NCBI GenBank assembly: GCA_036336685.1
Contig: JAYZFO010000008.1
Span: forward strand, 9,923 to 73,922
Length of the DNA: 64,000 nucleotides
Reading direction: 5' to 3'
Source of the DNA: Pseudomonadota bacterium
GTDB lineage: Bacteria > Pseudomonadota > Alphaproteobacteria > MPNO01 > UBA830
In this document: in pieces, positions 5,923 through 30,806 of the stretch
Layout of the letters: every line of letters begins with the position of its first letter
How positions within the stretch are numbered: the first letter of the stretch is position 1
Made by a program: the position numbers and the translations under genes
Notes under the pieces: model-generated
The model's input: the letters and a program-made list of their open reading frames with translations, nothing else
Told to the model about the DNA's origin: nothing
Database searches by the model: none

Positions 5923-6909
5923 ATGATTATCGTTACCGGTGGCGCCGGATTTATCGGCTCAAACTTAATCAAGGAATTAGAGGCTCGTAAAAACCAGAAA
6001 ATAGTCGTCTGTGACTATTTAGGTGCGGATGACAAGTGGAAAAACATCTCTAAACGAGAGCTTGCCGACATTATTACACCGGATGTCCTTTTCGATTATC
6101 TAAACGACCACGCCAAGGACGTAGAAACAATATTCCACATGGGCGCAATTTCGGCTACTACGGAACGTAATGCCGATCAGATTGTTAGTACTAATATTCA
6201 ATTAACTATGAACCTTTGGCATTGGTGTAGTAAAAATGGAACAACATTTATCTACGCGTCCTCAGCTGCAACATATGGGGATGGTAGTAATGGTTTCCGC
6301 GACGACGATTCAACGGATAGCCTCGCTAAATTGCGGCCATTAAATCTCTATGGATGGTCAAAACACGCGGTCGACCGCCGCGTAGCGCAAATAGTACAAG
6401 AACAAGGGCCCCAACCACCACATTGGGCAGGACTGAAGTTTTTTAATGTGTACGGCCCAAATGAATATCATAAAACGGGACAATTAAGCGTCGTGCTCAA
6501 AAACTACAGAGAGATAAGTAACACTGGCAAGGCACTTTTATTCCGTTCGAATGACCCAGGGTATGCTGACGGCGAACAGAAACGCGATTTTATCTGGGTC
6601 GGAGATTGCGTAAATATAGCTCTGTGGCTCTCAGAGAATTCTAAAGGAAAAGGCATTTACAATGTTGGAACAGGGAAGGCACGTACCTTTAAGGAGCTCG
6701 CATCCGCTGTTTTCGACAGTATGGATTTAGACAATAATATTGAGTTTATCGAGATGCCTGAAGTTCTGCAGAAGCACTATCAGTACTTTACAGAGGCACA
6801 CATCTCCCGGATACGGGCACTGGGGTATCAGACACCGACCACAGAGCTTGAGGATGGTATAAAACAATATTTACAGAATTACCTAATAACAACCGATCCA
6901 TATGCGTAA
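5923..6909 (+). CDS. hldD: ADP-L-glycero-D-manno-heptose 6-epimerase
   Basis: The N-terminus MIIVTGGAGFIGSNLIKEL closely matches the E. coli HldD/RfaD N-terminus as I remember it. It has an SDR-extended fold with YGWSK (YxxxK) and is 328 aa. Confidence 0.88.
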   Translation: MIIVTGGAGFIGSNLIKELEARKNQKIVVCDYLGADDKWKNISKRELADIITPDVLFDYLNDHAKDVETIFHMGAISATTERNADQIVSTNIQLTMNLWHWCSKNGTTFIYASSAATYGDGSNGFRDDDSTDSLAKLRPLNLYGWSKHAVDRRVAQIVQEQGPQPPHWAGLKFFNVYGPNEYHKTGQLSVVLKNYREISNTGKALLFRSNDPGYADGEQKRDFIWVGDCVNIALWLSENSKGKGIYNVGTGKARTFKELASAVFDSMDLDNNIEFIEMPEVLQKHYQYFTEAHISRIRALGYQTPTTELEDGIKQYLQNYLITTDPYA

Positions 6910-7710: not shown

Positions 7711-8782
7711 ACTTCGAGAGGTAATCCGAGACACAATTAATAAAACGGGGCCCATAACGGTCGCCAAGTTCATGGAACTCTCACTAGGGCACCCAGAATT
7801 TGGCTACTATACCACCCGAGATCCAATAGGTGTTAAAGGGGACTTTGTTACCTCCCCAGAGATCAGTCAGATCTTCGGCGAATTAATAGCTCTTTGGTCA
7901 GCAACCTGTTGGGAACATATGAATGCTCCTAAAAGGGTGGAAGTTATCGAATGTGGGCCCGGCCGCGGAACTTTGATGACGGACTTTTTACGGACCAGTA
8001 GAGCCATACCCGATTTTGACAAGGCAATAAATATACACCTCGTTGAAACGAGCCCAATTCTGAAAGGTCGACAGAGCAAGATACTGAACGAGATAGGTAT
8101 AAAATGGCACGATTCATTAGATACCGTGCCTATTGGGCCTACAATTTTGATTGCTAACGAATTCCTCGATGCCCTCCCGGTCCATCAACTTGTCAAAACA
8201 CCAGGAGGATGGGCAGAACGGCGGGTCGAACGAGCAAACAAAGGTTTTATGTTTACAACAGATAAACCTTCACCCAAGACGAAGGCAAAGATTCCAGAAA
8301 GCTTGCTTAGTGCCACAACAGGGTCTGTGTATGAATATTCGTCAGCAGCATTAGAGGTAGCGGACCAAATAGTTCAGCGGTTTAAAGCGGCCCCTGGATA
8401 TGCCCTTTTTATTGACTATGGGTACGACAAATATCAAACAGGGGACACACTCCAAGCAGTTAAATCTCAAAGCTATGCTGATGTACTCGTAAATCCCGGA
8501 CAGGTTGATCTTACAGCTCATGTTAACTTCGCGGCACTCGGCGAACGTATAAGAGATCATGGCATGAGTACATTGGGTCCAATAAGCCAAGCGTCTTTTC
8601 TAATTAGCCTAGGTATTTTCCGCCGCACTAGGGACTTGACAAAAAATGCTAATGCCGACCAGGCCAGAATGATAAACTCCGGAACCGGGCGACTAATAAA
8701 TCTTCACCAAATGGGTGCTTTATATAAAGTTTTCGTGGCGATGGGGACGGACCTACCCACTCCGGCTGGTTTTGAGCAATGA
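7703..8782 (+). CDS. Class I SAM-dependent methyltransferase (DUF185 / NDUFAF7-like)
   Basis: It carries GDFVTSPEISQIFGE and ECGPGRGTLM motifs typical of the DUF185 family. It overlaps the lgt end by 8 nt. Confidence 0.8.
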   Translation: MSKLREVIRDTINKTGPITVAKFMELSLGHPEFGYYTTRDPIGVKGDFVTSPEISQIFGELIALWSATCWEHMNAPKRVEVIECGPGRGTLMTDFLRTSRAIPDFDKAINIHLVETSPILKGRQSKILNEIGIKWHDSLDTVPIGPTILIANEFLDALPVHQLVKTPGGWAERRVERANKGFMFTTDKPSPKTKAKIPESLLSATTGSVYEYSSAALEVADQIVQRFKAAPGYALFIDYGYDKYQTGDTLQAVKSQSYADVLVNPGQVDLTAHVNFAALGERIRDHGMSTLGPISQASFLISLGIFRRTRDLTKNANADQARMINSGTGRLINLHQMGALYKVFVAMGTDLPTPAGFEQ

Positions 8783-9561
8783 CACAACAAATGCTGACCT
8801 CCACGTATTTTAGAAATCAACCAAACCTGCGACATGGGTTTTTCACGCGGCGAGGCGGCGTTAGTAAAGGCATATATGCTTCGTTGAATTGTGGACCGGG
8901 TTCACAAGACAGCATCGACGCAGTGACAGAGAACCGACATCGGGCGTGCAAAAGTCTTACCTTATCCCACGAAAACTTAGTGACGCTCCGACAAGTACAT
9001 AGTGCCAAAAGCATTATCATCACTGAGGCACTTTCAAATATAAAGAAAACACCACAGGCCGACGCGCTGGTCACGCGAACCCCGGGACTAATCCTCGGGA
9101 TTTTGACTGCGGATTGCGCGCCGATCTTATTTGGCGACGTCATGCATGGTGTAATTGGTGCAGCACACGCGGGCTGGAAGGGGGCACTCGATGGGGTCAT
9201 TGAGGGCACTGTCTCAGCAATGCTGAAGATAGGCGCAAATAAAAAAAATATAGTGGCAAGTATTGGTCCCTGCATCGCGCAGCCGTCGTATCAGGTCGGT
9301 GCCGATTTTTACACCTTATTTGTTCGCTCTGACCCAGAAGCTTCAGGCTTCTTCCAGCGCGAACCATGTAGCGACAAGCATATCTTTGATCTTGGTGGTT
9401 ACATCCGCGCACGCCTCATAAAAGTTGGCATCGCTCGCGTTGAAACCTTTAGAAATGATACATATGAAGAGGAAGAATTATTTTTTAGCTACCGACGTAA
9501 TACTCATCGTAAACTCTCCGACTACGGTCGTATGATATCCGCCATTGCAATAGCAGAATAA
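8779..9561 (+). CDS. pgeF: YfiH/PgeF-family laccase-domain protein (peptidoglycan editing factor)
   Basis: It has the motifs VHSA, ADALVT, LTADCAPILF and AHAGWKG. An ATGA overlap links it to the upstream gene. Confidence 0.8.
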   Translation: MTQQMLTSTYFRNQPNLRHGFFTRRGGVSKGIYASLNCGPGSQDSIDAVTENRHRACKSLTLSHENLVTLRQVHSAKSIIITEALSNIKKTPQADALVTRTPGLILGILTADCAPILFGDVMHGVIGAAHAGWKGALDGVIEGTVSAMLKIGANKKNIVASIGPCIAQPSYQVGADFYTLFVRSDPEASGFFQREPCSDKHIFDLGGYIRARLIKVGIARVETFRNDTYEEEELFFSYRRNTHRKLSDYGRMISAIAIAE

Positions 9562-25604: not shown

Positions 25605-25775
25605 CGGCTTAATCTACCGCAGAACAATCAAATTTCAAATCAAACTCCGTATCCTATCGTGGTCCAATAAGATAAGCCCAAGACGACGTCTGAACAAACA
25701 CAATGTTTCTAAAACACGATTGAAAAGGTTATCAAAACAAGATACTATCCAATCAGTATGTGGCTAGGCAGAATA

Positions 25776-26435
25776 ATGGATGCTCAAGCTGAAGATATTA
25801 TAGCAAATGATGACCGTGCGCGCCCGGCGACGAAACGTGAGCAGCGGGCCGCAAGCATCGAATCTCTTCTCGGTGAGGCGTTGACGCTTTTCATTACACA
25901 GGGGTATCACGCGACGACGGTGGAAGAAATTGCTCAAGCTGCGGGACTAACAAAGGGGGCGGTATATTTTTACTTCAAGAGTAAAGCGAATGTGCTGAAA
26001 GCGCTCCTCGCCAGAACAGAAGAATTAACTGTCGAACCCACCTTAGCGGCAATGTCCGCTGCGGGGTCAGACCCAAAAGCCCGACTTAATGCGTTCGTTC
26101 GTTCCCAATCGGTGATTGGGGCAGAGAAAACAGAATATATGCTGTTAGCCATCCTGATGAGTGCGGAATTTAACGGTTCTGGTCAGGAGATTGAGCGTCG
26201 TTTAACCGAGTTAATGGCGCGAATGGAAACCGAATTACGCGATACAATCTCTACTGGGCAGAATATGGGTTTCTTTCGCAAAGGAATAGGGGCAAATGAG
26301 TTGGCAAGTGTAATCATGGCAACAAATAAAGGCTGTTATGTAGAGTGGTATATGCGCGGTGGGGACCTGAAAGGGCATGACTTTGCGCGCGCATTCCGCG
26401 ATTTCGTTTTCGACGGGGTAGCTAAGAAATTATGA
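25776..26435 (+). CDS. TetR/AcrR-family regulator (first gene of the Paa-like operon)
   Basis: It has the HTH TTVEEIAQAAGLTKGAVYFYFKSK. It ends 69 bp upstream of the PaaA-like gene on the same strand. The start is the ATG at 25776 or at 25758. Confidence 0.85.
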   Translation: MDAQAEDIIANDDRARPATKREQRAASIESLLGEALTLFITQGYHATTVEEIAQAAGLTKGAVYFYFKSKANVLKALLARTEELTVEPTLAAMSAAGSDPKARLNAFVRSQSVIGAEKTEYMLLAILMSAEFNGSGQEIERRLTELMARMETELRDTISTGQNMGFFRKGIGANELASVIMATNKGCYVEWYMRGGDLKGHDFARAFRDFVFDGVAKKL

Positions 26436-26503
26436 AAACCCCTCATTTCATTTTCGACAACGTTTAAAAAAGCAATTTTAATTCGGAGAAAGGCAACTAC
26501 CCA

Positions 26504-27457
26504 ATGGCAACGGCAATTAAAGATGTACAAGAAGACCCACGCGAACGCGCATTACAGGAGCGCGTTGCCGCCGGCCATCAGCTGGAAGACGTAGAGGAAA
26601 TGACGCCGCGGTACAAAGATGTCTTGGTAAATACCATCCACATCGCAGCCGACTTGGAGGTTGTGACACTGCCAACATACTCACCGGCCATTAAAACCTC
26701 GCCAACACTCGAAGATAAAATTGCGATAGCTGCAGCTTGCCAGGACGAACTCGGACACGCCCAAATGATGTATCGTATATTAGAAGATTTTGGTTACGAC
26801 ACCCATCGCTTCTTATTTGAGCGAGACCCAGAGGAGTGGCGTACATTTCAGATGTTAGAATTCCCTCATGAGGATTACATAGAATCGGTTGTTTCTATGT
26901 GCTACGGCGATCGGGCAGGCTACATAACGACTGTAGATCTCGAAGAAAACTGTTCATATGCACCCTTTGCACGTTCGTTGCGAAAGGTGAATTACGAAGA
27001 AACTTTCCACGTCAGCCATGGTGAGCGTTGGACGAAATTTTTCTGGAACCAATCAGACGAAAGTCGGCGTCGCGTTCAAGAAACAGTGGATTTTTATTTT
27101 CCACTGTGTGCGGCGTGGTTCGGGATGCCCGACAATTTAAAAACCCGCACCGACCAGCTATCCTACCGAATTCGGGGCGCTTCAAATGACGAAATGCGGC
27201 AGAAATGGCTGTCTCGGGTTGTTCCATTTTCAGAGAGTGTCGGCGTCAAGGTTCCCGCCCACTACGACAACGATCAGGGTAAATACGTATTAGACTATAA
27301 GCCACCAATTTACCTGGATGAAGAGAAGCGTGAATGGGATTACGATCGCAATATTACCTGGAAAGAACAACTTAAGATCTGGAAAAAGGGGTCGAAACAT
27401 AAAGTGCCGTCGATCGCCCGTGTAATCTCCGAACAATGGGGTAAGGATCTTTGGTAA
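26504..27457 (+). CDS. PaaA-like diiron acyl-CoA (phenylacetyl-CoA-type) epoxidase catalytic subunit
   Basis: It is 317 aa with two ExxH iron-ligand motifs (QDELGHAQ, EETFHVSHGERW). Size and layout match PaaA, and PaaB- and PaaC-like genes follow it. Confidence 0.82.
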   Translation: MATAIKDVQEDPRERALQERVAAGHQLEDVEEMTPRYKDVLVNTIHIAADLEVVTLPTYSPAIKTSPTLEDKIAIAAACQDELGHAQMMYRILEDFGYDTHRFLFERDPEEWRTFQMLEFPHEDYIESVVSMCYGDRAGYITTVDLEENCSYAPFARSLRKVNYEETFHVSHGERWTKFFWNQSDESRRRVQETVDFYFPLCAAWFGMPDNLKTRTDQLSYRIRGASNDEMRQKWLSRVVPFSESVGVKVPAHYDNDQGKYVLDYKPPIYLDEEKREWDYDRNITWKEQLKIWKKGSKHKVPSIARVISEQWGKDLW

Positions 27458-27510
27458 ACATTGAATTAGAGATGTGGAAACATCTATGATGATCCAGCAA
27501 CTTATTATAA

Positions 27511-27843
27511 ATGCCTAATCAACAGACGCCGCCATCCCAGGACACCCTTCTGCAGGCACTGGAAAAAGTTAACGATCCTCATGTGCCAGTAAGCCTTCGC
27601 CGAATGGGCATGCTGCGGGACATTGAAATAGGGGACAATGGCCTAGTTAAAATACAGATTTGCATTCCGTGTTTGGGTTGCCCGGGTGTCGGGATGCTTC
27701 GCGAAAACGTGCGCATGGCAGCACTGTCAGTACCGGGAGTAGAAGAGGTCGTAATAGAGGAAGGGTGGCACCTTCCCTGGTCACGCGACATGATAGAACC
27801 TGAAGTCCAGGAGATGATGCGTGCAAATGGCATCCAAGTTTAA
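27511..27843 (+). CDS. DUF59/MIP18-domain protein equivalent to the N-terminal domain of PaaD
   Basis: It is 110 aa. VNDPHVPVSLRRMGMLRDIEI...CIPCLGCPG parallels the PaaD N-domain (my recollection of E. coli PaaD). It ends at what would be the interdomain linker. Confidence 0.72.
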   Translation: MPNQQTPPSQDTLLQALEKVNDPHVPVSLRRMGMLRDIEIGDNGLVKIQICIPCLGCPGVGMLRENVRMAALSVPGVEEVVIEEGWHLPWSRDMIEPEVQEMMRANGIQV

Positions 27844-27858
27844 ATAGGAAAGTCGACT

Positions 27859-28131
27859 ATGACGACAAAAATAAAATCTAAAAAAAAGATCAATCAAAAA
27901 AGAGAACGTGGGGGCAAAGAACCAAAATATTACGAAGTATTTGCTCGCAAAGACTCGAACTCCGACCTTTCCCACGTGGGATCAGTTGAAGCGCCAAACG
28001 ACGAACTCGCCCAAGTACGTGCCTGGTACATATATGATCAACACCGTTGGCGCGAAATGTGTGTGGTGCCATTAGAGGCAATCATCACTGTTACCGAAGA
28101 AGGCAAGTCCGCCAAGATCAAAATGGGCTAA
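27859..28131 (+). CDS. PaaB-like small subunit of the acyl-CoA epoxidase
   Basis: It is 90 aa. YYEVFARK...SHVGSVEAP...A...YIYDQHRWREMCVVP matches the PaaB pattern (YEVF.R...H.GS..A). It has an AGGAAAG RBS. Confidence 0.8.
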   Translation: MTTKIKSKKKINQKRERGGKEPKYYEVFARKDSNSDLSHVGSVEAPNDELAQVRAWYIYDQHRWREMCVVPLEAIITVTEEGKSAKIKMG

Positions 28132-28154
28132 CCACAAGAGAAAAGGGATTAAAG

Positions 28155-28934
28155 ATGGTGTACACTCCTGGAGTACCGGGTACAGCGTTAGACGAACAGT
28201 TCAGAAACGACCTCCTAGCCGTGGCCGATACAAAGCTGGTTCTAGGCAATTGGTATGCCGAGTGCGTGATGAATGGCCGCTCGCTGCCAGATTTTGCGGC
28301 AATCCTCGGTATGTGTACCGCAAATTACGGTCATACTCGCGCTATATATCAATATTTAGCCGCACACGGTCACGATTATGTATATCTAGAGCGGGGCCGT
28401 GGACCCGAGGATATCCATTCTTCCAACCTACTCGATGAAGCTCCTACCGGGTGGGAAGATTTCATAGTTTCAACGTGGCTGGCTGAATTAGCTACTTGGA
28501 TGTTGGTTTCAGGTTATCTTAATCATGAGGATAGAGCCGTCGCAGGCCTTTCCAAGAAAATTGGCGAAGAGACATACTTCCACCTAAAGTACGCGAATGG
28601 TTGGTTCCAGATAATTGGCGAAGGAAAGAAACAATCCCAGCTTTTCCAGAAGTCCTATACAAAGCGATTCCCATTAGCGCTTCAGTGGTTCGGCCCGGTG
28701 CGCGGCAAAGATCAGGTGCACGAACTTGGTATCCGAGACGTACCCCTCAAAAAGCTACGAGATGCGTTTAAAAAAGAAGTCGCTAGTGCAAAAAACCCCT
28801 TAGGTGCCGCTCTCGGCCAAGCAAAACCTATAAAGTTTGCAAAAGACTGGCGCTCAGATGCCCGGCGGTTGGGGCCAATACCTGCCAGTTTATTTGAGGT
28901 GGTTCGTTTCAAGGACACAGAACTTGCCCACTGA
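28155..28934 (+). CDS. PaaC-like structural subunit of the acyl-CoA epoxidase
   Basis: It is 259 aa and looks like a ferritin-like helical protein (LLAVADTKLVLGNWYAECV, EETYFHLKYANGW). The position after paaB fits PaaC. I prefer the ATG at 28155 with an AAGGGA RBS; the ORF-track start at 28047 runs through paaB. Confidence 0.75.
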   Translation: MVYTPGVPGTALDEQFRNDLLAVADTKLVLGNWYAECVMNGRSLPDFAAILGMCTANYGHTRAIYQYLAAHGHDYVYLERGRGPEDIHSSNLLDEAPTGWEDFIVSTWLAELATWMLVSGYLNHEDRAVAGLSKKIGEETYFHLKYANGWFQIIGEGKKQSQLFQKSYTKRFPLALQWFGPVRGKDQVHELGIRDVPLKKLRDAFKKEVASAKNPLGAALGQAKPIKFAKDWRSDARRLGPIPASLFEVVRFKDTELAH

Positions 28935-29181
28935 CACCTCTATCCCGCGCATAGGCCGAGATCTGGGCGGATATGCGTCCCGTCACCGCGACCTTCACAC
29001 TGGTGACCCAGACTTCAACGACGTCACATGTCCGGAATGTGATAGTGATAAATTAGAAGTCATTTCGCTATTCGGTGGAGCCGCTTCCGAAATAATGTTC
29101 CGATGTCATGACTGTGATACCAGCTTCAACTGGATCAAGTGGCGCGGAAAACTACCCCCGACACCATCGGTCAAAGAATAA
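28924..29181 (+). CDS. Stand-alone zinc-ribbon protein equivalent to the C-terminal domain of PaaD
   Basis: CPECDSDKLEVISLFGGAASEIMFRCHDCDTSFNWIKW contains CxxC...CxxC, as in the PaaD C-terminus. I prefer the TTG at 28924, which has an AAGGA RBS 8 nt upstream. The ATGs at 28837 and 28858 would overlap paaC by 98 and 77 nt. Confidence 0.6.
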   Translation: MPTDTSIPRIGRDLGGYASRHRDLHTGDPDFNDVTCPECDSDKLEVISLFGGAASEIMFRCHDCDTSFNWIKWRGKLPPTPSVKE

Positions 29182-29194
29182 ACGGACGTATTTA

Positions 29195-29956
29195 ATGACT
29201 AAACACACTGCCGCACCACTCGTATCAGCGGCGGAAATCGTCAAAAATAAGCGCTCAGAGATGACGGACCCTGGTATTCCACGGCCGGACACACACGTGG
29301 AAGATGCCTTGCTTTCGCGGCGTTCGATAAGAGCTTTTAAGAACAACGCCGTACCAAAAAATGTAATTCGGCGCATTCTAGAATGTGCTCGATGGTCTCC
29401 GTCTGGCTCCAACACCCAACCGTGGAAAGTTCACGTGCTAAATGGTGACGCCCGGCAAAGATATACCAAAGCATTGTTAGCGGCGGAAAAAAACAATGAA
29501 CCAAGCGCTATGGAATACCACTACTACGCCCCGGAGTGGAGAGAACCATTTTTGAATCGGCGGCGTTCCTGTGGTTTTGGACTGTATAAGGCGATGGACA
29601 TAAAAAGGGAAGACAAGGTGCAACGGCACGAGGCTTACCTGAAGAATTTCAAATTTTTCGGGGCTTCGACTGGATTCCTTTTTTGGATACCCTCCGATTT
29701 AGAGCACGGGTCTTGGCTAGACTATGGAACATTCATCCAATCAATATCCATTGCAGCGCGCGGTTGGGGCCTATGGACAATTGCGCAGGGTGCTCTCGGC
29801 GAATACCCGCATGTGGCACACAAAATGTTCAACGTAGATGATGATTATAAGTTAGTCGGCGGGATGAGCATTGGATGGCCAGATGAAAATGCCGCCGTAA
29901 ATAGTTTTCAACCTGAACGACTGAGCGTAGATGAATTCACCACATGGCTAGATTGA
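29195..29956 (+). CDS. Nitroreductase-family FMN flavoprotein
   Basis: It has the motifs RRSIRAF...RWSPSGSNTQPWK and is about 253 aa. The ATG at 29195 lies just after the zinc-ribbon stop; the ORF-track start at 29108 overlaps that gene. Confidence 0.85.
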   Translation: MTKHTAAPLVSAAEIVKNKRSEMTDPGIPRPDTHVEDALLSRRSIRAFKNNAVPKNVIRRILECARWSPSGSNTQPWKVHVLNGDARQRYTKALLAAEKNNEPSAMEYHYYAPEWREPFLNRRRSCGFGLYKAMDIKREDKVQRHEAYLKNFKFFGASTGFLFWIPSDLEHGSWLDYGTFIQSISIAARGWGLWTIAQGALGEYPHVAHKMFNVDDDYKLVGGMSIGWPDENAAVNSFQPERLSVDEFTTWLD

Positions 29957-29963
29957 AGGAACG

Positions 29964-30758
29964 ATGGATTACAGCATATACAAGACTCTTCTATTTGAGA
30001 AAAATAACAGGATACTAACGGTTACGTTAAACCGGCCAGAAAAGTTAAATGCCATCGATGGAACGATGCACGAAGAACTTTCCCGTGTCTTTGAAGACAT
30101 AAATAGAGATCGGTCTGTAGATATCGTCGTACTAACTGGTGCTGGCCGGGCCTTTTGCGCAGGCGGTGATACTGATTGGCTGCAGGATTTAATCGACGAC
30201 CCATGGGGCTGGGAAACGTTGTCTGAAGAGGGCAAAAGATCAATGCTTAGCATCCTGGATTGCCGACAACCTATTATTGCAAAGGTCAACGGAGCCGCAG
30301 CAGGCCTAGGAGCGACCCTTGCGCTCTACTGTGATATCATAATGGCAGCGGATACGGCGCGAATTGGGGACCCCCATGTAAATGTAGGGCTGACCGCAGG
30401 CGATGGTGGCTCGGGCATCTGGCCCTATCTGATAGGCTTCGCTCGCGCAAGAGAGTTTTTATATACCGGCGAAATGCTGACCGCAGACCGTGCTGCAGAC
30501 ATCGGCCTGATAAATCGATGTGTACCAGCCGATGACCTGGATAATGTCGTAGACAAATTTGCCAACAATCTTGCGGATGGGGCTATTCGAGCTATTCATT
30601 GGACAAAACAAGCTATTAATGCGCCTTTAAAGCAACTTGTATCCACAAATTTAGATTATTCTCTATCACTAGAAGCCAAATCAAATATTACTGCGGACCA
30701 CCAGGAGGGCATTAATGCACTTCGCGAAAAGCGACGACCGGCCTTCAAAGGTGAGTAG
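29964..30758 (+). CDS. Crotonase-superfamily protein (enoyl-CoA hydratase/isomerase family, atypical active site)
   Basis: It has the motifs LNRPEKLNA, LTGAGRAFCAGGD and VNGAAAGLGATLAL. The position of the first catalytic Glu (the PE of canonical hydratases) reads PH (His138). The second Glu context (AREFLYTG) is retained. Confidence 0.88.
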   Translation: MDYSIYKTLLFEKNNRILTVTLNRPEKLNAIDGTMHEELSRVFEDINRDRSVDIVVLTGAGRAFCAGGDTDWLQDLIDDPWGWETLSEEGKRSMLSILDCRQPIIAKVNGAAAGLGATLALYCDIIMAADTARIGDPHVNVGLTAGDGGSGIWPYLIGFARAREFLYTGEMLTADRAADIGLINRCVPADDLDNVVDKFANNLADGAIRAIHWTKQAINAPLKQLVSTNLDYSLSLEAKSNITADHQEGINALREKRRPAFKGE

Positions 30759-30806
30759 TGTAAACACGCTCGTGAACAGTAAACGGAATTTTCTGAAATA
30801 CTCACA

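What the first reader, a model, noticed from the sequence alone, without database searches (positions are those of the whole stretch)
27511..29181. PaaD split into two separate genes that bracket paaB-paaC
Canonical PaaD is one protein of about 165 aa, with an N-terminal DUF59/MIP18 domain and a C-terminal CxxC...CxxC zinc ribbon. Here the DUF59 part is a stand-alone 110-aa gene placed between paaA and paaB. It ends (..EMMRANGIQV) where I recall the E. coli interdomain linker to be. The zinc ribbon (CPECDSD...RCHDCDTSF) is a separate small gene after paaC in a different frame, with its own AAGGA RBS and TTG start. The resulting order A-D(N)-B-C-D(C) differs from the usual A-B-C-D-E. PaaD function is itself poorly understood (proposed maturation or assembly role), so a natural domain split is informative.
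Basis: partly seen in the sequence, partly recalled or inferred. Interest (0 to 1): 0.6.

Follow-up and report, generated by a model that had tools for sequence, protein, structure and literature searches.

The report
PaaD encoded as two separate genes
The helper protein PaaD of a phenylacetyl-CoA-epoxidase-like iron oxygenase is encoded here as two small genes flanking paaB-paaC; this is the normal layout of a widespread, unstudied sister family without the usual reductase, and the single E. coli gene is probably a later fusion.

Summary
A 110-aa DUF59 gene (27511-27843) lies between the paaA-like and paaB-like genes. An 85-aa four-Cys zinc-ribbon gene (28924-29181, TTG start, AAGGA 8 nt upstream) overlaps the end of the paaC-like gene by 11 nt. 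Together they align to E. coli PaaD residues 9-110 and 124-163, so the break falls in the linker.

It is not an artefact or a local event. The order A-DUF59-B-C-ribbon recurs in 29 other loci. These include marine Alphaproteobacteria, Azospirillum, Pseudonocardia, a Thermus plasmid and a haloarchaeal plasmid. The ribbon gene is found in 23 of 25 genomes of the window's own family. dN/dS against the nearest relative is 0.08 (ribbon) and 0.12 (DUF59).

No locus with separate halves has PaaE beside it. All 15 fused A-B-C-D loci fetched from genomes are followed by PaaE.

In an A+C tree this family is sister to the canonical one. A haloarchaeal cluster with adjacent, unfused halves branches at the base of the fused clade, so separate genes are the more parsimonious ancestral state.

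Databases already hold the parts: Pfam PF23451, and NCBIfam NF041868/NF041869, which names the ribbon "PaaE". I found no paper describing the layout.

The cluster is not a canonical paa operon. Its substrate and electron donor are unknown.

The parts
25758..26435 (+). TetR-family regulator upstream of the operon
   Evidence: PF00440 at 7.6e-17. A TetR gene sits in the same position in 24 of the 26 loci from the genome-contig scan; two further loci lack it there and one (L027) does not reach that far.
26504..27457 (+). PaaA-like catalytic di-iron subunit (317 aa)
   Evidence: PF05138 at 3.3e-51. TIGR02156 scores 119 bits, below the 280 cut-off. All six E. coli PaaA iron-ligand positions (E42, E72, H75, D126, E155, H158) are kept as E-E-H-D-E-H.
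27511..27843 (+). Stand-alone DUF59 protein (110 aa), counterpart of the N-terminal domain of PaaD
   Evidence: PF01883 at 55.4 bits. It aligns to E. coli PaaD residues 9-110. There are 197 stand-alone homologues. dN/dS is 0.12. It carries C-I-P-C-L-G-C-P where canonical PaaD has T-Y-S-G-C-P.
27859..28131 (+). PaaB-like bridging subunit (90 aa) with a Lys-rich N-terminus
   Evidence: PF06243 at 33.5 bits against a cut-off of 27. TIGR02157 scores 30.2 against 85.45.
28155..28934 (+). PaaC-like subunit (259 aa from the ATG at 28155)
   Evidence: PF05138 at 8.3e-19. The iron-ligand positions read K-N-H-E-T-H, a partly degenerate site.
28911..28915 (+). AAGGA Shine-Dalgarno-like motif, 8 nt before the TTG start of the ribbon gene
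   Evidence: Read directly from the sequence.
28924..29181 (+). Stand-alone four-Cys zinc-ribbon protein (85 aa), counterpart of the C-terminal domain of PaaD
   Evidence: PF23451 at 43.9 bits. The family profile aligns to E. coli PaaD residues 124-163. Homologues start MPTD at this codon. dN/dS is 0.08. In the AF2 model the 10-residue blocks covering residues 31-70 have mean pLDDT 74-91, forming a three-stranded sheet. The top Foldseek matches are NrdR, RNA polymerase and Rpp21 zinc ribbons.
29195..29956 (+). Nitroreductase-family flavoprotein in the position that PaaE holds in canonical operons
   Evidence: PF00881 at 2.4e-28. It follows the ribbon gene in the window and in 16 of the 29 other bracket-order loci.
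29964..30758 (+). Crotonase-family enzyme, next gene of the same operon
   Evidence: PF00378 at 1.1e-55. It scores 186 bits against PaaG TIGR02280, below the 345 cut-off.

Best explanation
The region is part of one operon: TetR, paaA-like, DUF59, paaB-like, paaC-like, Zn ribbon, nitroreductase, crotonase, esterase. It encodes a member of a widespread, uncharacterised sister family of the phenylacetyl-CoA 1,2-epoxidase.

In this family the two domains of PaaD are always separate polypeptides. The DUF59 protein is encoded next to the catalytic A subunit. The four-Cys zinc ribbon is encoded next to the C subunit, and here it overlaps the end of paaC. No PaaE reductase is encoded nearby.

Shown:
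- homology of each small gene to one PaaD domain;
- purifying selection on both genes;
- invariance of the layout across phyla;
- absence of PaaE;
- an intact di-iron site in the A subunit.

Inferred:
- The two small proteins do what PaaD does in E. coli. There it is needed in vivo but not in vitro, which suggests maturation or iron loading of the oxygenase.
- They act on the PaaABC-like core rather than on a PaaE iron-sulfur cluster, because they persist where PaaE is absent.
- From gene adjacency, DUF59 would serve PaaA and the ribbon would dock on PaaC.
- The separate state is probably ancestral, and canonical PaaD is probably a fusion that arose once the two genes became adjacent.

Substrate and electron donor are unknown. 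The adjacent nitroreductase-type flavoprotein is a candidate donor in the marine clade only.
For: - **Domain homology:**
- **Real genes:** 26 ribbon clusters and 197 DUF59 homologues, all stand-alone. dN/dS is 0.08 and 0.12.
- **Operon structure:** there is no terminator-like site on the + strand inside 26500-30800, and the gaps between genes run from -11 to 53 nt.
- **Layout survey:** of 49 loci, 30 (the window and 29 others) have A-DUF59-B-C-ribbon, and one variant has A-DUF59-B-ribbon-C. These include Azospirillum sp. ST 5-10, Pseudonocardia xishanensis, a Halalkalicoccus plasmid and a Thermus thermophilus plasmid. Distant metagenomic members have the same order.
- **Canonical contrast:** all 15 canonical loci have A-B-C-fused D-PaaE. 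TIGR02160 PaaE reaches its cut-off only in Pseudonocardia, on another contig that carries a canonical operon.
- **Tree:** the bracket A subunits form one clade (SH-aLRT 91) and the fused ones another (99). The haloarchaeal adjacent-split cluster is sister to the fused clade (100), and the C subtree shows the same pattern.
- **Distribution:** the ribbon gene is present in 23 of 25 genomes of the window's own family.
- **Role of PaaD in E. coli:** indispensable in vivo, not required in vitro, SufT-like, possibly inserting iron into PaaE or PaaA (PMC4498308; PMC9493321).
Against: - No experiment exists for any member of this family. The function of the two proteins is transferred from E. coli PaaD, whose own function is unsettled.
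- The DUF59 tree does not resolve whether the bracket-type DUF59 is closer to canonical PaaD than to SufT. Three clades form a star, so orthology rests on synteny.
- The polarity argument is only 2 events against 3. It rests on a single haloarchaeal adjacent-split locus and a quick tree with several long branches.
- The link between fused PaaD and PaaE is essentially one phylogenetic event, and one fused locus lacks PaaE (Rhodococcus plasmid).
- The pairings DUF59-PaaA and ribbon-PaaC come from gene order alone.
Confidence: 0.7

Rival explanations
1. Fission and translocation, which is the first reader's sense of 'split'. The ancestor had a fused PaaD after paaC. At the base of this family the gene broke at the linker and the DUF59 half moved to between paaA and paaB. 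Haloarchaea broke theirs independently.
For: The break lies exactly at the canonical linker. The root, placed by the C paralogue, lies between the two families, so the polarity is not decided by strong support.
Against: This needs three events against two. A fission gives adjacent genes, and that state is seen only in the haloarchaeal lineage that is sister to the fused clade. No bracket-family member with a fused or adjacent arrangement was found among the 31 loci with separated halves.
Confidence: 0.22
2. The ribbon is a redox protein. The four Cys would bind iron as in rubredoxin. Together with the adjacent nitroreductase-type flavoprotein, it would replace PaaE as the electron route to the di-iron site.
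For: PaaE is absent. A nitroreductase gene follows the ribbon gene in the window and 16 other loci. The protein has a CPxC...CxxC arrangement and a strictly conserved inter-knuckle loop, SLFGGAASE.
Against: The top structural matches are structural zinc ribbons (NrdR, RNA polymerase subunits, Rpp21), and no rubredoxin appears in the top 50. The same ribbon exists in canonical PaaD alongside a complete PaaE. The nitroreductase is missing from about 40% of bracket loci. The Halalkalicoccus cluster carries a separate 2Fe-2S ferredoxin instead.
Confidence: 0.07
3. Assembly or frameshift artefact, or a PaaC-ribbon fusion made by programmed frameshifting across the 11-nt overlap.
For: The window comes from a fragmented MAG of 41 contigs. 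The ribbon gene overlaps paaC in another frame.
Against: The same layout occurs in 29 independent assemblies, including closed chromosomes, isolate genomes and plasmids. The two halves are about 1.1 kb apart with two genes between them. In relatives the paaC-ribbon junction ranges from a 4-nt overlap to a 10-nt gap. There is therefore no conserved frameshift site. Each relative has its own start codon.
Confidence: 0.01
4. The DUF59 gene is a general SufT-type Fe-S assembly factor that merely sits in the operon, and the ribbon is an unrelated small zinc-binding protein.
For: The DUF59 protein scores about equally against SUF_assoc (58.2 bits), haloarchaeal PaaD (59) and TIGR02159 (48.1). The DUF59 tree is unresolved.
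Against: Ten of the 11 genomes tested have a separate housekeeping SUF_assoc protein scoring 134-148 bits; the eleventh, Pseudonocardia, peaks at 70. The operon copy scores 52-63 bits and forms its own clade. DUF59 and ribbon co-occur with A, B and C in 31 of 31 loci. The ribbon passes the PF23451 cut-off and aligns to E. coli PaaD residues 124-163.
Confidence: 0.03

Closest known systems
E. coli / Pseudomonas 1,2-phenylacetyl-CoA epoxidase PaaABC(D)E with fused PaaD (TIGR02156-02160)
   Same: It has the same subunit families: PF05138 for A and C, PF06243 for B, and DUF59 plus the PaaD-type zinc ribbon. The A subunit keeps all six di-iron ligands. The two small proteins together cover E. coli PaaD residues 9-110 and 124-163.
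   Different: - PaaD is two polypeptides encoded about 1.1 kb apart.
- The gene order is A-D(N)-B-C-D(C).
- There is no PaaE.
- All subunits score far below the equivalog cut-offs.
- No PaaK, PaaG, PaaZ or PaaJ equivalogs lie nearby.
- The ribbon lacks the two extra Cys of the canonical domain (TAC, FKC[I/H]) and has a W-x-G-x-L-P-P tail.
- DUF59 has extra Cys in C-x-x-C-x-x-C-P.
- The family is a separate clade in the A and C trees.
Haloarchaeal paa clusters annotated paaA-paaB-paaC-paaD-'paaE' (NCBIfam NF041868 and NF041869; e.g. Halogeometricum borinquense pHBOR04)
   Same: PaaD is also two genes: a DUF59-only protein and a ribbon of about 55 aa. No PaaE-type reductase lies in the cluster. 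The NF041869 model matches PaaD-type ribbons.
   Different: The halves are adjacent and come after paaC, not around paaB-paaC. The cluster is sister to the canonical fused clade, not to the window's family. Its PaaC keeps all six iron ligands. The window's DUF59 scores 59 bits against the 180 cut-off of NF041868, and its ribbon does not hit NF041869 at E<0.01.
Unnamed A-DUF59-B-C-ribbon clusters on Halalkalicoccus jeotgali plasmid 1 and Thermus thermophilus pHB5018c
   Same: They have the same gene order, and a crotonase gene follows. They belong to the same clade in the A tree.
   Different: PaaA is only about 39-40% identical to the window's. Their PaaC keeps K-E-H-D-E-H where the window has K-N-H-E-T-H. 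The Halalkalicoccus cluster has a separate 2Fe-2S ferredoxin gene. In these records the genes are annotated only as 'Phenylacetic acid catabolic protein', 'metal-sulfur cluster assembly factor' and 'hypothetical protein'. The Thermus ribbon ORF is not annotated at all.
SufT / SUF-associated DUF59 proteins (TIGR02945) and accessory proteins of other di-iron monooxygenases
   Same: The fold family is the same (PDB 3LNO, 1UWD, 2CU6 by sequence). The G-C-P cysteine is conserved. A role in metal-centre maturation is presumed for both.
   Different: The housekeeping SufT-like gene is a separate gene in the same genome, scoring 143 bits against 57.6. The operon copy is dedicated to a PaaABC-like oxygenase and is always paired with a ribbon protein. 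The comparison with accessory proteins of other di-iron monooxygenases rests on general knowledge and was not tested here.

Membership tests
Canonical PaaD (TIGR02159, PA_CoA_Oxy4) | One polypeptide carrying DUF59 plus a C-terminal zinc ribbon | tested here: not met
   There are two genes, 27511-27843 and 28924-29181, in different frames with paaB and paaC between them.
Canonical PaaD (TIGR02159, PA_CoA_Oxy4) | Score at or above the equivalog cut-off of 108.15 bits | tested here: not met
   DUF59 scores 48.1 bits on model positions 1-88. The ribbon scores 27.3-28.2 bits on positions 102-144.
Canonical PaaD (TIGR02159, PA_CoA_Oxy4) | Encoded between paaC and paaE in a paaABCDE operon | tested here: not met
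   The order is A-DUF59-B-C-ribbon-nitroreductase. No PaaE lies in the locus or, above cut-off, in the assembly.
Pfam PF23451 Zn_ribbon_PaaD | Score above the gathering cut-off, two CxxC knuckles and a zinc-ribbon fold | tested here: met
   It scores 43.9 bits against 27. C37, C40, C62 and C65 are invariant. The AF2 core is a three-stranded sheet whose nearest matches are NrdR-type ribbons. The metal itself was not tested.
Pfam PF01883 DUF59 / FeS_assembly_P | Score above the gathering cut-off and the conserved G-C-P cysteine | tested here: met
   It scores 55.4 bits against 23.5. G-C-P is present, with additional Cys upstream.
Haloarchaeal split PaaD / 'PaaE' (NF041868 / NF041869) | Scores above the equivalog cut-offs (180 and 100 bits) and the two genes adjacent after paaC | tested here: not met
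   DUF59 scores 59 bits against 180. The ribbon has no NF041869 hit at E<0.01. The genes are not adjacent. The family sits in a different clade.
1,2-phenylacetyl-CoA epoxidase PaaABCE | PaaA, PaaB and PaaC at equivalog level | tested here: not met
   Scores against cut-offs are 119 vs 280, 30.2 vs 85.45 and 40.6 vs 133.35 bits.
1,2-phenylacetyl-CoA epoxidase PaaABCE | Di-iron ligands in the catalytic subunit | tested here: met
   E-E-H-D-E-H at the E. coli PaaA positions 42, 72, 75, 126, 155 and 158.
1,2-phenylacetyl-CoA epoxidase PaaABCE | Dedicated PaaE reductase (TIGR02160) | tested here: not met
   The best hit in the window's genome is 45.9 bits against a cut-off of 420.8. There is none above cut-off in seven related MAG genomes that carry the cluster, most of them assembled as whole chromosomes. 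The window's own assembly is only 70% complete.
1,2-phenylacetyl-CoA epoxidase PaaABCE | Activity on phenylacetyl-CoA; companion PaaK, PaaG and PaaZ genes | tested here: inconclusive
   The neighbouring crotonase scores 186 bits against the 345 cut-off of PaaG, and the ligase is FadD-like, not PaaK. Substrate cannot be tested with these tools.

The most novel reading that the evidence does not exclude
PaaD would be, in origin, two independent accessory subunits with different partners. The DUF59 protein would be an iron-delivery factor for the catalytic A subunit. The zinc ribbon would be a docking module for the C subunit.

Their persistence in a family that never has PaaE would mean that PaaD's unknown job is maturation of the di-iron core, not of PaaE's iron-sulfur cluster.

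The family would then offer a natural separation of function for dissecting PaaD. It would also represent the ancestral, PaaE-independent architecture of aryl-CoA epoxidases.
Probability: 0.3. Interest if true: 0.6.

Novelty: new variant of a known kind. Interest (0 to 1): 0.4.

Why it matters
PaaD is the one component of the phenylacetyl-CoA epoxidase whose role is still unknown: it is required in vivo but dispensable in vitro.

A large natural family keeps both PaaD domains as separate proteins and has no PaaE. This argues that PaaD works on the PaaABC core. It also makes the two domains separately testable by binding partner, metal content and knockout.

The work also shows three further points:
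- 'paa' annotations of such clusters should not be read as phenylacetate catabolism.
- The ribbon gene is often left as 'hypothetical' or missed altogether.
- NCBIfam's haloarchaeal 'PaaE' is in fact the C-terminal domain of PaaD.

The family is nearly universal in one family of marine Alphaproteobacteria, so its unknown substrate may matter for marine carbon turnover.

Tried and rejected
- **Read or transcript support:** Independence of 29 assemblies is used instead.
- **AF2 of a fused canonical PaaD:** I modelled P0268 as a single sequence to see whether the two domains pack together. Mean pLDDT was 49.7, so the model is uninformative.
- **DUF59 tree:** the tree of bracket, fused and SUF-type domains gave three clades in a star with long-branch problems, so it says nothing about orthology.
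- **TTHB138 (PDB 2CU6/3CQ1):** I considered it as a solved bracket-type DUF59, because it lies on a Thermus plasmid. It matches the pHB5018c protein at only 59.7 bits (2.3e-15), far from an identical chain, so I did not take it as the same protein.
- **G023:** I guessed it was bracket-type from its low PF23451 score. It turned out to be a canonical fused locus.
- **Programmed frameshift joining PaaC and the ribbon:** rejected because the junction varies among relatives, from a 4-nt overlap to a 10-nt gap.
- **Rubredoxin-like fold:** not among the top 50 structural matches.
- **Literature:** searches on PaaD zinc ribbon, split PaaD, PF23451, PaaA-like and haloarchaeal paaD/paaE found no description of the layout.
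- **Promoter and terminator scan:** nothing above chance.
Full report
**What is in the sequence.**

Between 25758 and 31670 the + strand carries a tight gene row: TetR, a PaaA-like gene (26504-27457), a 110-aa DUF59 gene (27511-27843), a PaaB-like gene (27859-28131), a PaaC-like gene (28155-28934), a small Cys-rich ORF, a nitroreductase-family gene, a crotonase and an esterase. Gaps between genes run from -11 to 53 nt, and no + strand terminator-like site lies inside the row.

The DUF59 ORF ends ...EMMRANGIQV. The small ORF passes the Pfam cut-off for PF23451, 'PaaD zinc beta ribbon domain' (43.9 bits against 27). It also matches positions 102-144 of the 146-position PaaD model TIGR02159. The DUF59 ORF matches positions 1-88 of that model.

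The ribbon gene starts at the TTG at 28924, 8 nt after AAGGA (28911-28915). Homologues from other genomes begin MPTD at exactly this codon. The gene is therefore 85 aa long and overlaps the paaC stop codon by 11 nt.

**Comparison with a real PaaD.**

I fetched the E. coli K-12 paaABCDE region. The window's DUF59 protein aligns to E. coli PaaD residues 9-110 (27% identity, E 7e-9). The profile of the ribbon family aligns to residues 124-163 (hhalign probability 96.7%). The break thus falls in the 13-residue linker of the E. coli protein.

**Artefact or real?**

Both small genes have many stand-alone homologues:
- 26 clusters of ribbon proteins of 69-93 aa, annotated 'hypothetical protein' wherever a source names them;
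- 197 DUF59 proteins (the 120 listed are 97-130 aa), most of them from marine metagenomes.

Against the nearest relative, dN/dS is 0.08 for the ribbon and 0.12 for DUF59. In all but one of the more distant pairs synonymous sites are saturated while pN stays at 0.15-0.36.

A scan of one genome per species found 26 loci. Every one that covers the region has the order A-DUF59-B-C-ribbon. Two of them come from cultured strains, Azospirillum sp. ST 5-10 and the actinomycete Pseudonocardia xishanensis.

A profile search of 1.84 billion representative proteins gave 184 hits. The best ~100 are almost all stand-alone proteins of 50-95 aa. Canonical PaaD proteins (163-214 aa, ribbon at the C-terminus) appear only at E around 1e-4. 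Two of the distant stand-alone proteins that I looked up also lie directly after a PaaC-like gene in the same gene order.

The ribbon gene is present in 23 of 25 genomes of the window's own taxonomic family and in 4 of 16 genomes from the rest of the order. An assembly or frameshift artefact is nevertheless excluded by this many independent assemblies.

**The layout belongs to a distinct family without PaaE.**

I classified 49 loci by building profiles of the two domains and by BLAST with the window and E. coli subunits.
- The window and 29 other loci have A-DUF59-B-C-ribbon. These include a Halalkalicoccus jeotgali plasmid and a Thermus thermophilus plasmid.
- One divergent locus has A-DUF59-B-ribbon-C.
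- Fifteen loci have A-B-C-[DUF59+ribbon fused]-PaaE. These are E. coli, the second canonical cluster of Pseudonocardia, and 13 Alphaproteobacteria.
- One Rhodococcus plasmid has a fused PaaD and no PaaE.

No locus with separate halves has a PaaE gene beside it. The PaaE model TIGR02160 reaches its cut-off in none of seven related MAG genomes that carry the cluster, most of them assembled as whole chromosomes. It reaches the cut-off only in Pseudonocardia, at its canonical operon.

In a sample of 401 genomes of the class, about 38 have the high-scoring canonical ribbon. Only three, the window's genome included, have the bracket type.

The window's subunits score far below the NCBIfam equivalog cut-offs for PaaA, PaaB and PaaC. 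No neighbouring gene reaches a paa equivalog cut-off. The ligase on the opposite strand is FadD-like, not PaaK. The window's genome holds no second PaaA/C locus, though the assembly is only 70% complete.

This is therefore a paralogous CoA-thioester oxygenase system, not the phenylacetate pathway.

**A precedent in the databases.**

While checking fused proteins I saw that their ribbons also match NCBIfam NF041869. This is a 56-position model named 'haloarchaeal 1,2-phenylacetyl-CoA epoxidase subunit PaaE'.

On Halogeometricum borinquense pHBOR04 the annotated cluster is paaA-paaB-paaC-paaD-paaE. There 'paaD' is DUF59 only and 'paaE' is a 55-aa ribbon. A PaaD encoded as two genes is therefore already curated for haloarchaea, with the halves adjacent and the ribbon misnamed.

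I found no paper that describes the ribbon domain, the split or the bracket order. Reviews state only that PaaD is about 170 residues, DUF59- and SufT-like, and indispensable in vivo but not needed in vitro. They suggest it may be involved in inserting iron into PaaE or PaaA (PMC4498308; PMC9493321).

**Split or fusion?**

I built a tree of 35 A and 35 C subunits, each subtree rooting the other.
- The bracket-type A subunits form one clade (SH-aLRT 91).
- The fused-type A subunits form another (99).
- The haloarchaeal adjacent-split cluster is sister to the fused clade (100).
- The C subtree agrees: fused clade 99, with the haloarchaeal cluster at 94.

If the ancestor had separate genes, two events suffice: one translocation and one fusion. 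If the ancestor had a fused gene, three are needed: two fissions and one translocation. The series bracket, then adjacent, then fused is also mechanistically simple.

This is a modest argument. It rests on one haloarchaeal locus, a quick search and long branches. I put the fusion reading at about 60-65%.

**Features that differ between the two forms.**

- Bracket-type DUF59 proteins carry extra cysteines, C-I-P-C-x-x-C-P. These are reduced to P-C-x-x-C-P in the divergent L042 and the Halalkalicoccus member, and the upstream Cys is lost in the Thermus member. Canonical PaaD has T-Y-S-G-C-P.
- The canonical ribbon has two further conserved Cys (S-T-A-C-K and the terminal F-K-C-I/H). The bracket type lacks these. 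Instead it has F-N-W-I-K-W-x-G-x-L-P-P and, in the marine clade, a 30-residue N-terminal extension that AF2 leaves disordered.
- The ribbon model has a core of good confidence: the 10-residue blocks covering residues 31-70 have mean pLDDT 74-91. Its nearest solved structures are the zinc ribbons of NrdR, RNA polymerase subunits and Rpp21. No rubredoxin appears in the top 50.
- No solved structure matches the ribbon by sequence.

**The oxygenase core.**

The PaaA-like subunit keeps all six iron ligands of E. coli PaaA. Earlier notes of this scan on other genomes claimed that the C subunit of this family keeps five of six ligand positions. I tested this.
- It holds for the deep members: Halalkalicoccus and Thermus have K-E-H-D-E-H.
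- The haloarchaeal canonical-like PaaC keeps all six.
- The window's clade has K-N-H-E-T-H. That is three of six positions, plus the invariant Lys and a Glu displaced by one residue.
- Canonical bacterial PaaC has lost the site.

The claim is therefore only partly true for this window.

**How it most likely works.**

Shown: two conserved, selected small proteins homologous to the two PaaD domains are co-inherited with a PaaABC-like oxygenase that has an intact catalytic di-iron site and no PaaE.

Inferred:
- They carry out PaaD's accessory role, which is maturation or iron loading of the oxygenase.
- That role concerns the ABC core rather than PaaE's 2Fe-2S cluster, because both halves persist where PaaE is absent.
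- The constant adjacency of DUF59 to paaA, and of the ribbon to paaC on either side of it, suggests different partners.
- The DUF59 protein is not the housekeeping SufT. Ten of the 11 genomes tested have a separate SUF-associated copy scoring 134-148 bits against 52-63 for the operon copy. The short domain tree cannot say which of SufT or canonical PaaD it is closer to.
- Electrons may come from the adjacent nitroreductase-type flavoprotein in the marine clade. That gene is missing from about 40% of bracket loci, and Halalkalicoccus has a ferredoxin instead. The donor is therefore open.

**Verdict.**

The finding is an ordinary member of a widespread, database-visible but unstudied variant of the Paa-type epoxidase. 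Other windows of this scan have met the same layout in at least 18 genomes.

It is moderately interesting as a natural separation of the two PaaD domains and as evidence that PaaD serves the oxygenase core. It is not a singular event in this genome.

Noticed in passing
L039:5944-6150 (Thermus thermophilus HB5018 plasmid pHB5018c, NZ_AP024272.1): A PaaD-type zinc-ribbon ORF after the PaaC-like gene is not annotated in this record. The annotated crotonase CDS starts at 6020 inside it, in another frame. The crotonase similarity begins only around 6167, so the annotated start is probably too early.
   Followed up: partly
L057:6303-6470 (Halogeometricum borinquense pHBOR04) and NCBIfam NF041869: The haloarchaeal protein named 'PaaE' is a 55-aa zinc ribbon homologous to the C-terminal domain of PaaD. 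It is not related to the PaaE reductase, so the name is misleading.
   Followed up: yes
L042:4975-7694 (genome G059, contig 4): This locus has a variant order, A-DUF59-B-ribbon-C, with the ribbon before paaC instead of after it. The same genome has a second, ordinary bracket-type cluster (L043), whose PaaA-like gene is broken into two overlapping frames (7870-8967 and 8511-9041).
   Followed up: partly
L026:2731-5552 (MAG chromosome OZ251539.1): About 2.8 kb is inserted between the PaaA-like gene and the DUF59 gene of an otherwise ordinary bracket cluster. I did not examine its content.
   Followed up: no
window 27859-28131: The PaaB-like protein matches NCBIfam TIGR04031, 'Htur_1727 family rSAM-partnered candidate RiPP', about as well (32.1 bits) as the PaaB model (30.2 bits). 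That 'candidate RiPP' family may be related to PaaB-like subunits.
   Followed up: no
P0184 (341 aa, metagenome): One protein carries a PaaD-type ribbon (residues 98-136) fused in front of a crotonase domain. The ribbon therefore also occurs fused to the next enzyme of the operon.
   Followed up: no
L057, L038 and L039 PaaC-like genes; window 28155-28934: The 'structural' C subunit keeps all six di-iron ligand positions in the haloarchaeal canonical-like cluster. It keeps five plus a Lys in the Halalkalicoccus and Thermus bracket clusters, but only three plus the Lys in the window's clade. Canonical bacterial PaaC has lost them.
   Followed up: yes
whole assembly G000 (window = contig 8, 9923-73922): The assembly is 1.12 Mb and rated 70% complete, while genomes of the same genus are 3.1-3.5 Mb. 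The completeness estimate looks too high, so absences in this genome carry little weight.
   Followed up: no
G000 contig 29, 2828-3601 and 9734-10024: The housekeeping SUF-associated DUF59 gene (143 bits) lies about 6 kb from a 341-aa Fer2/FNR-like reductase ORF. That ORF is the genome's best, though weak, PaaE-like hit (45.9 bits).
   Followed up: no
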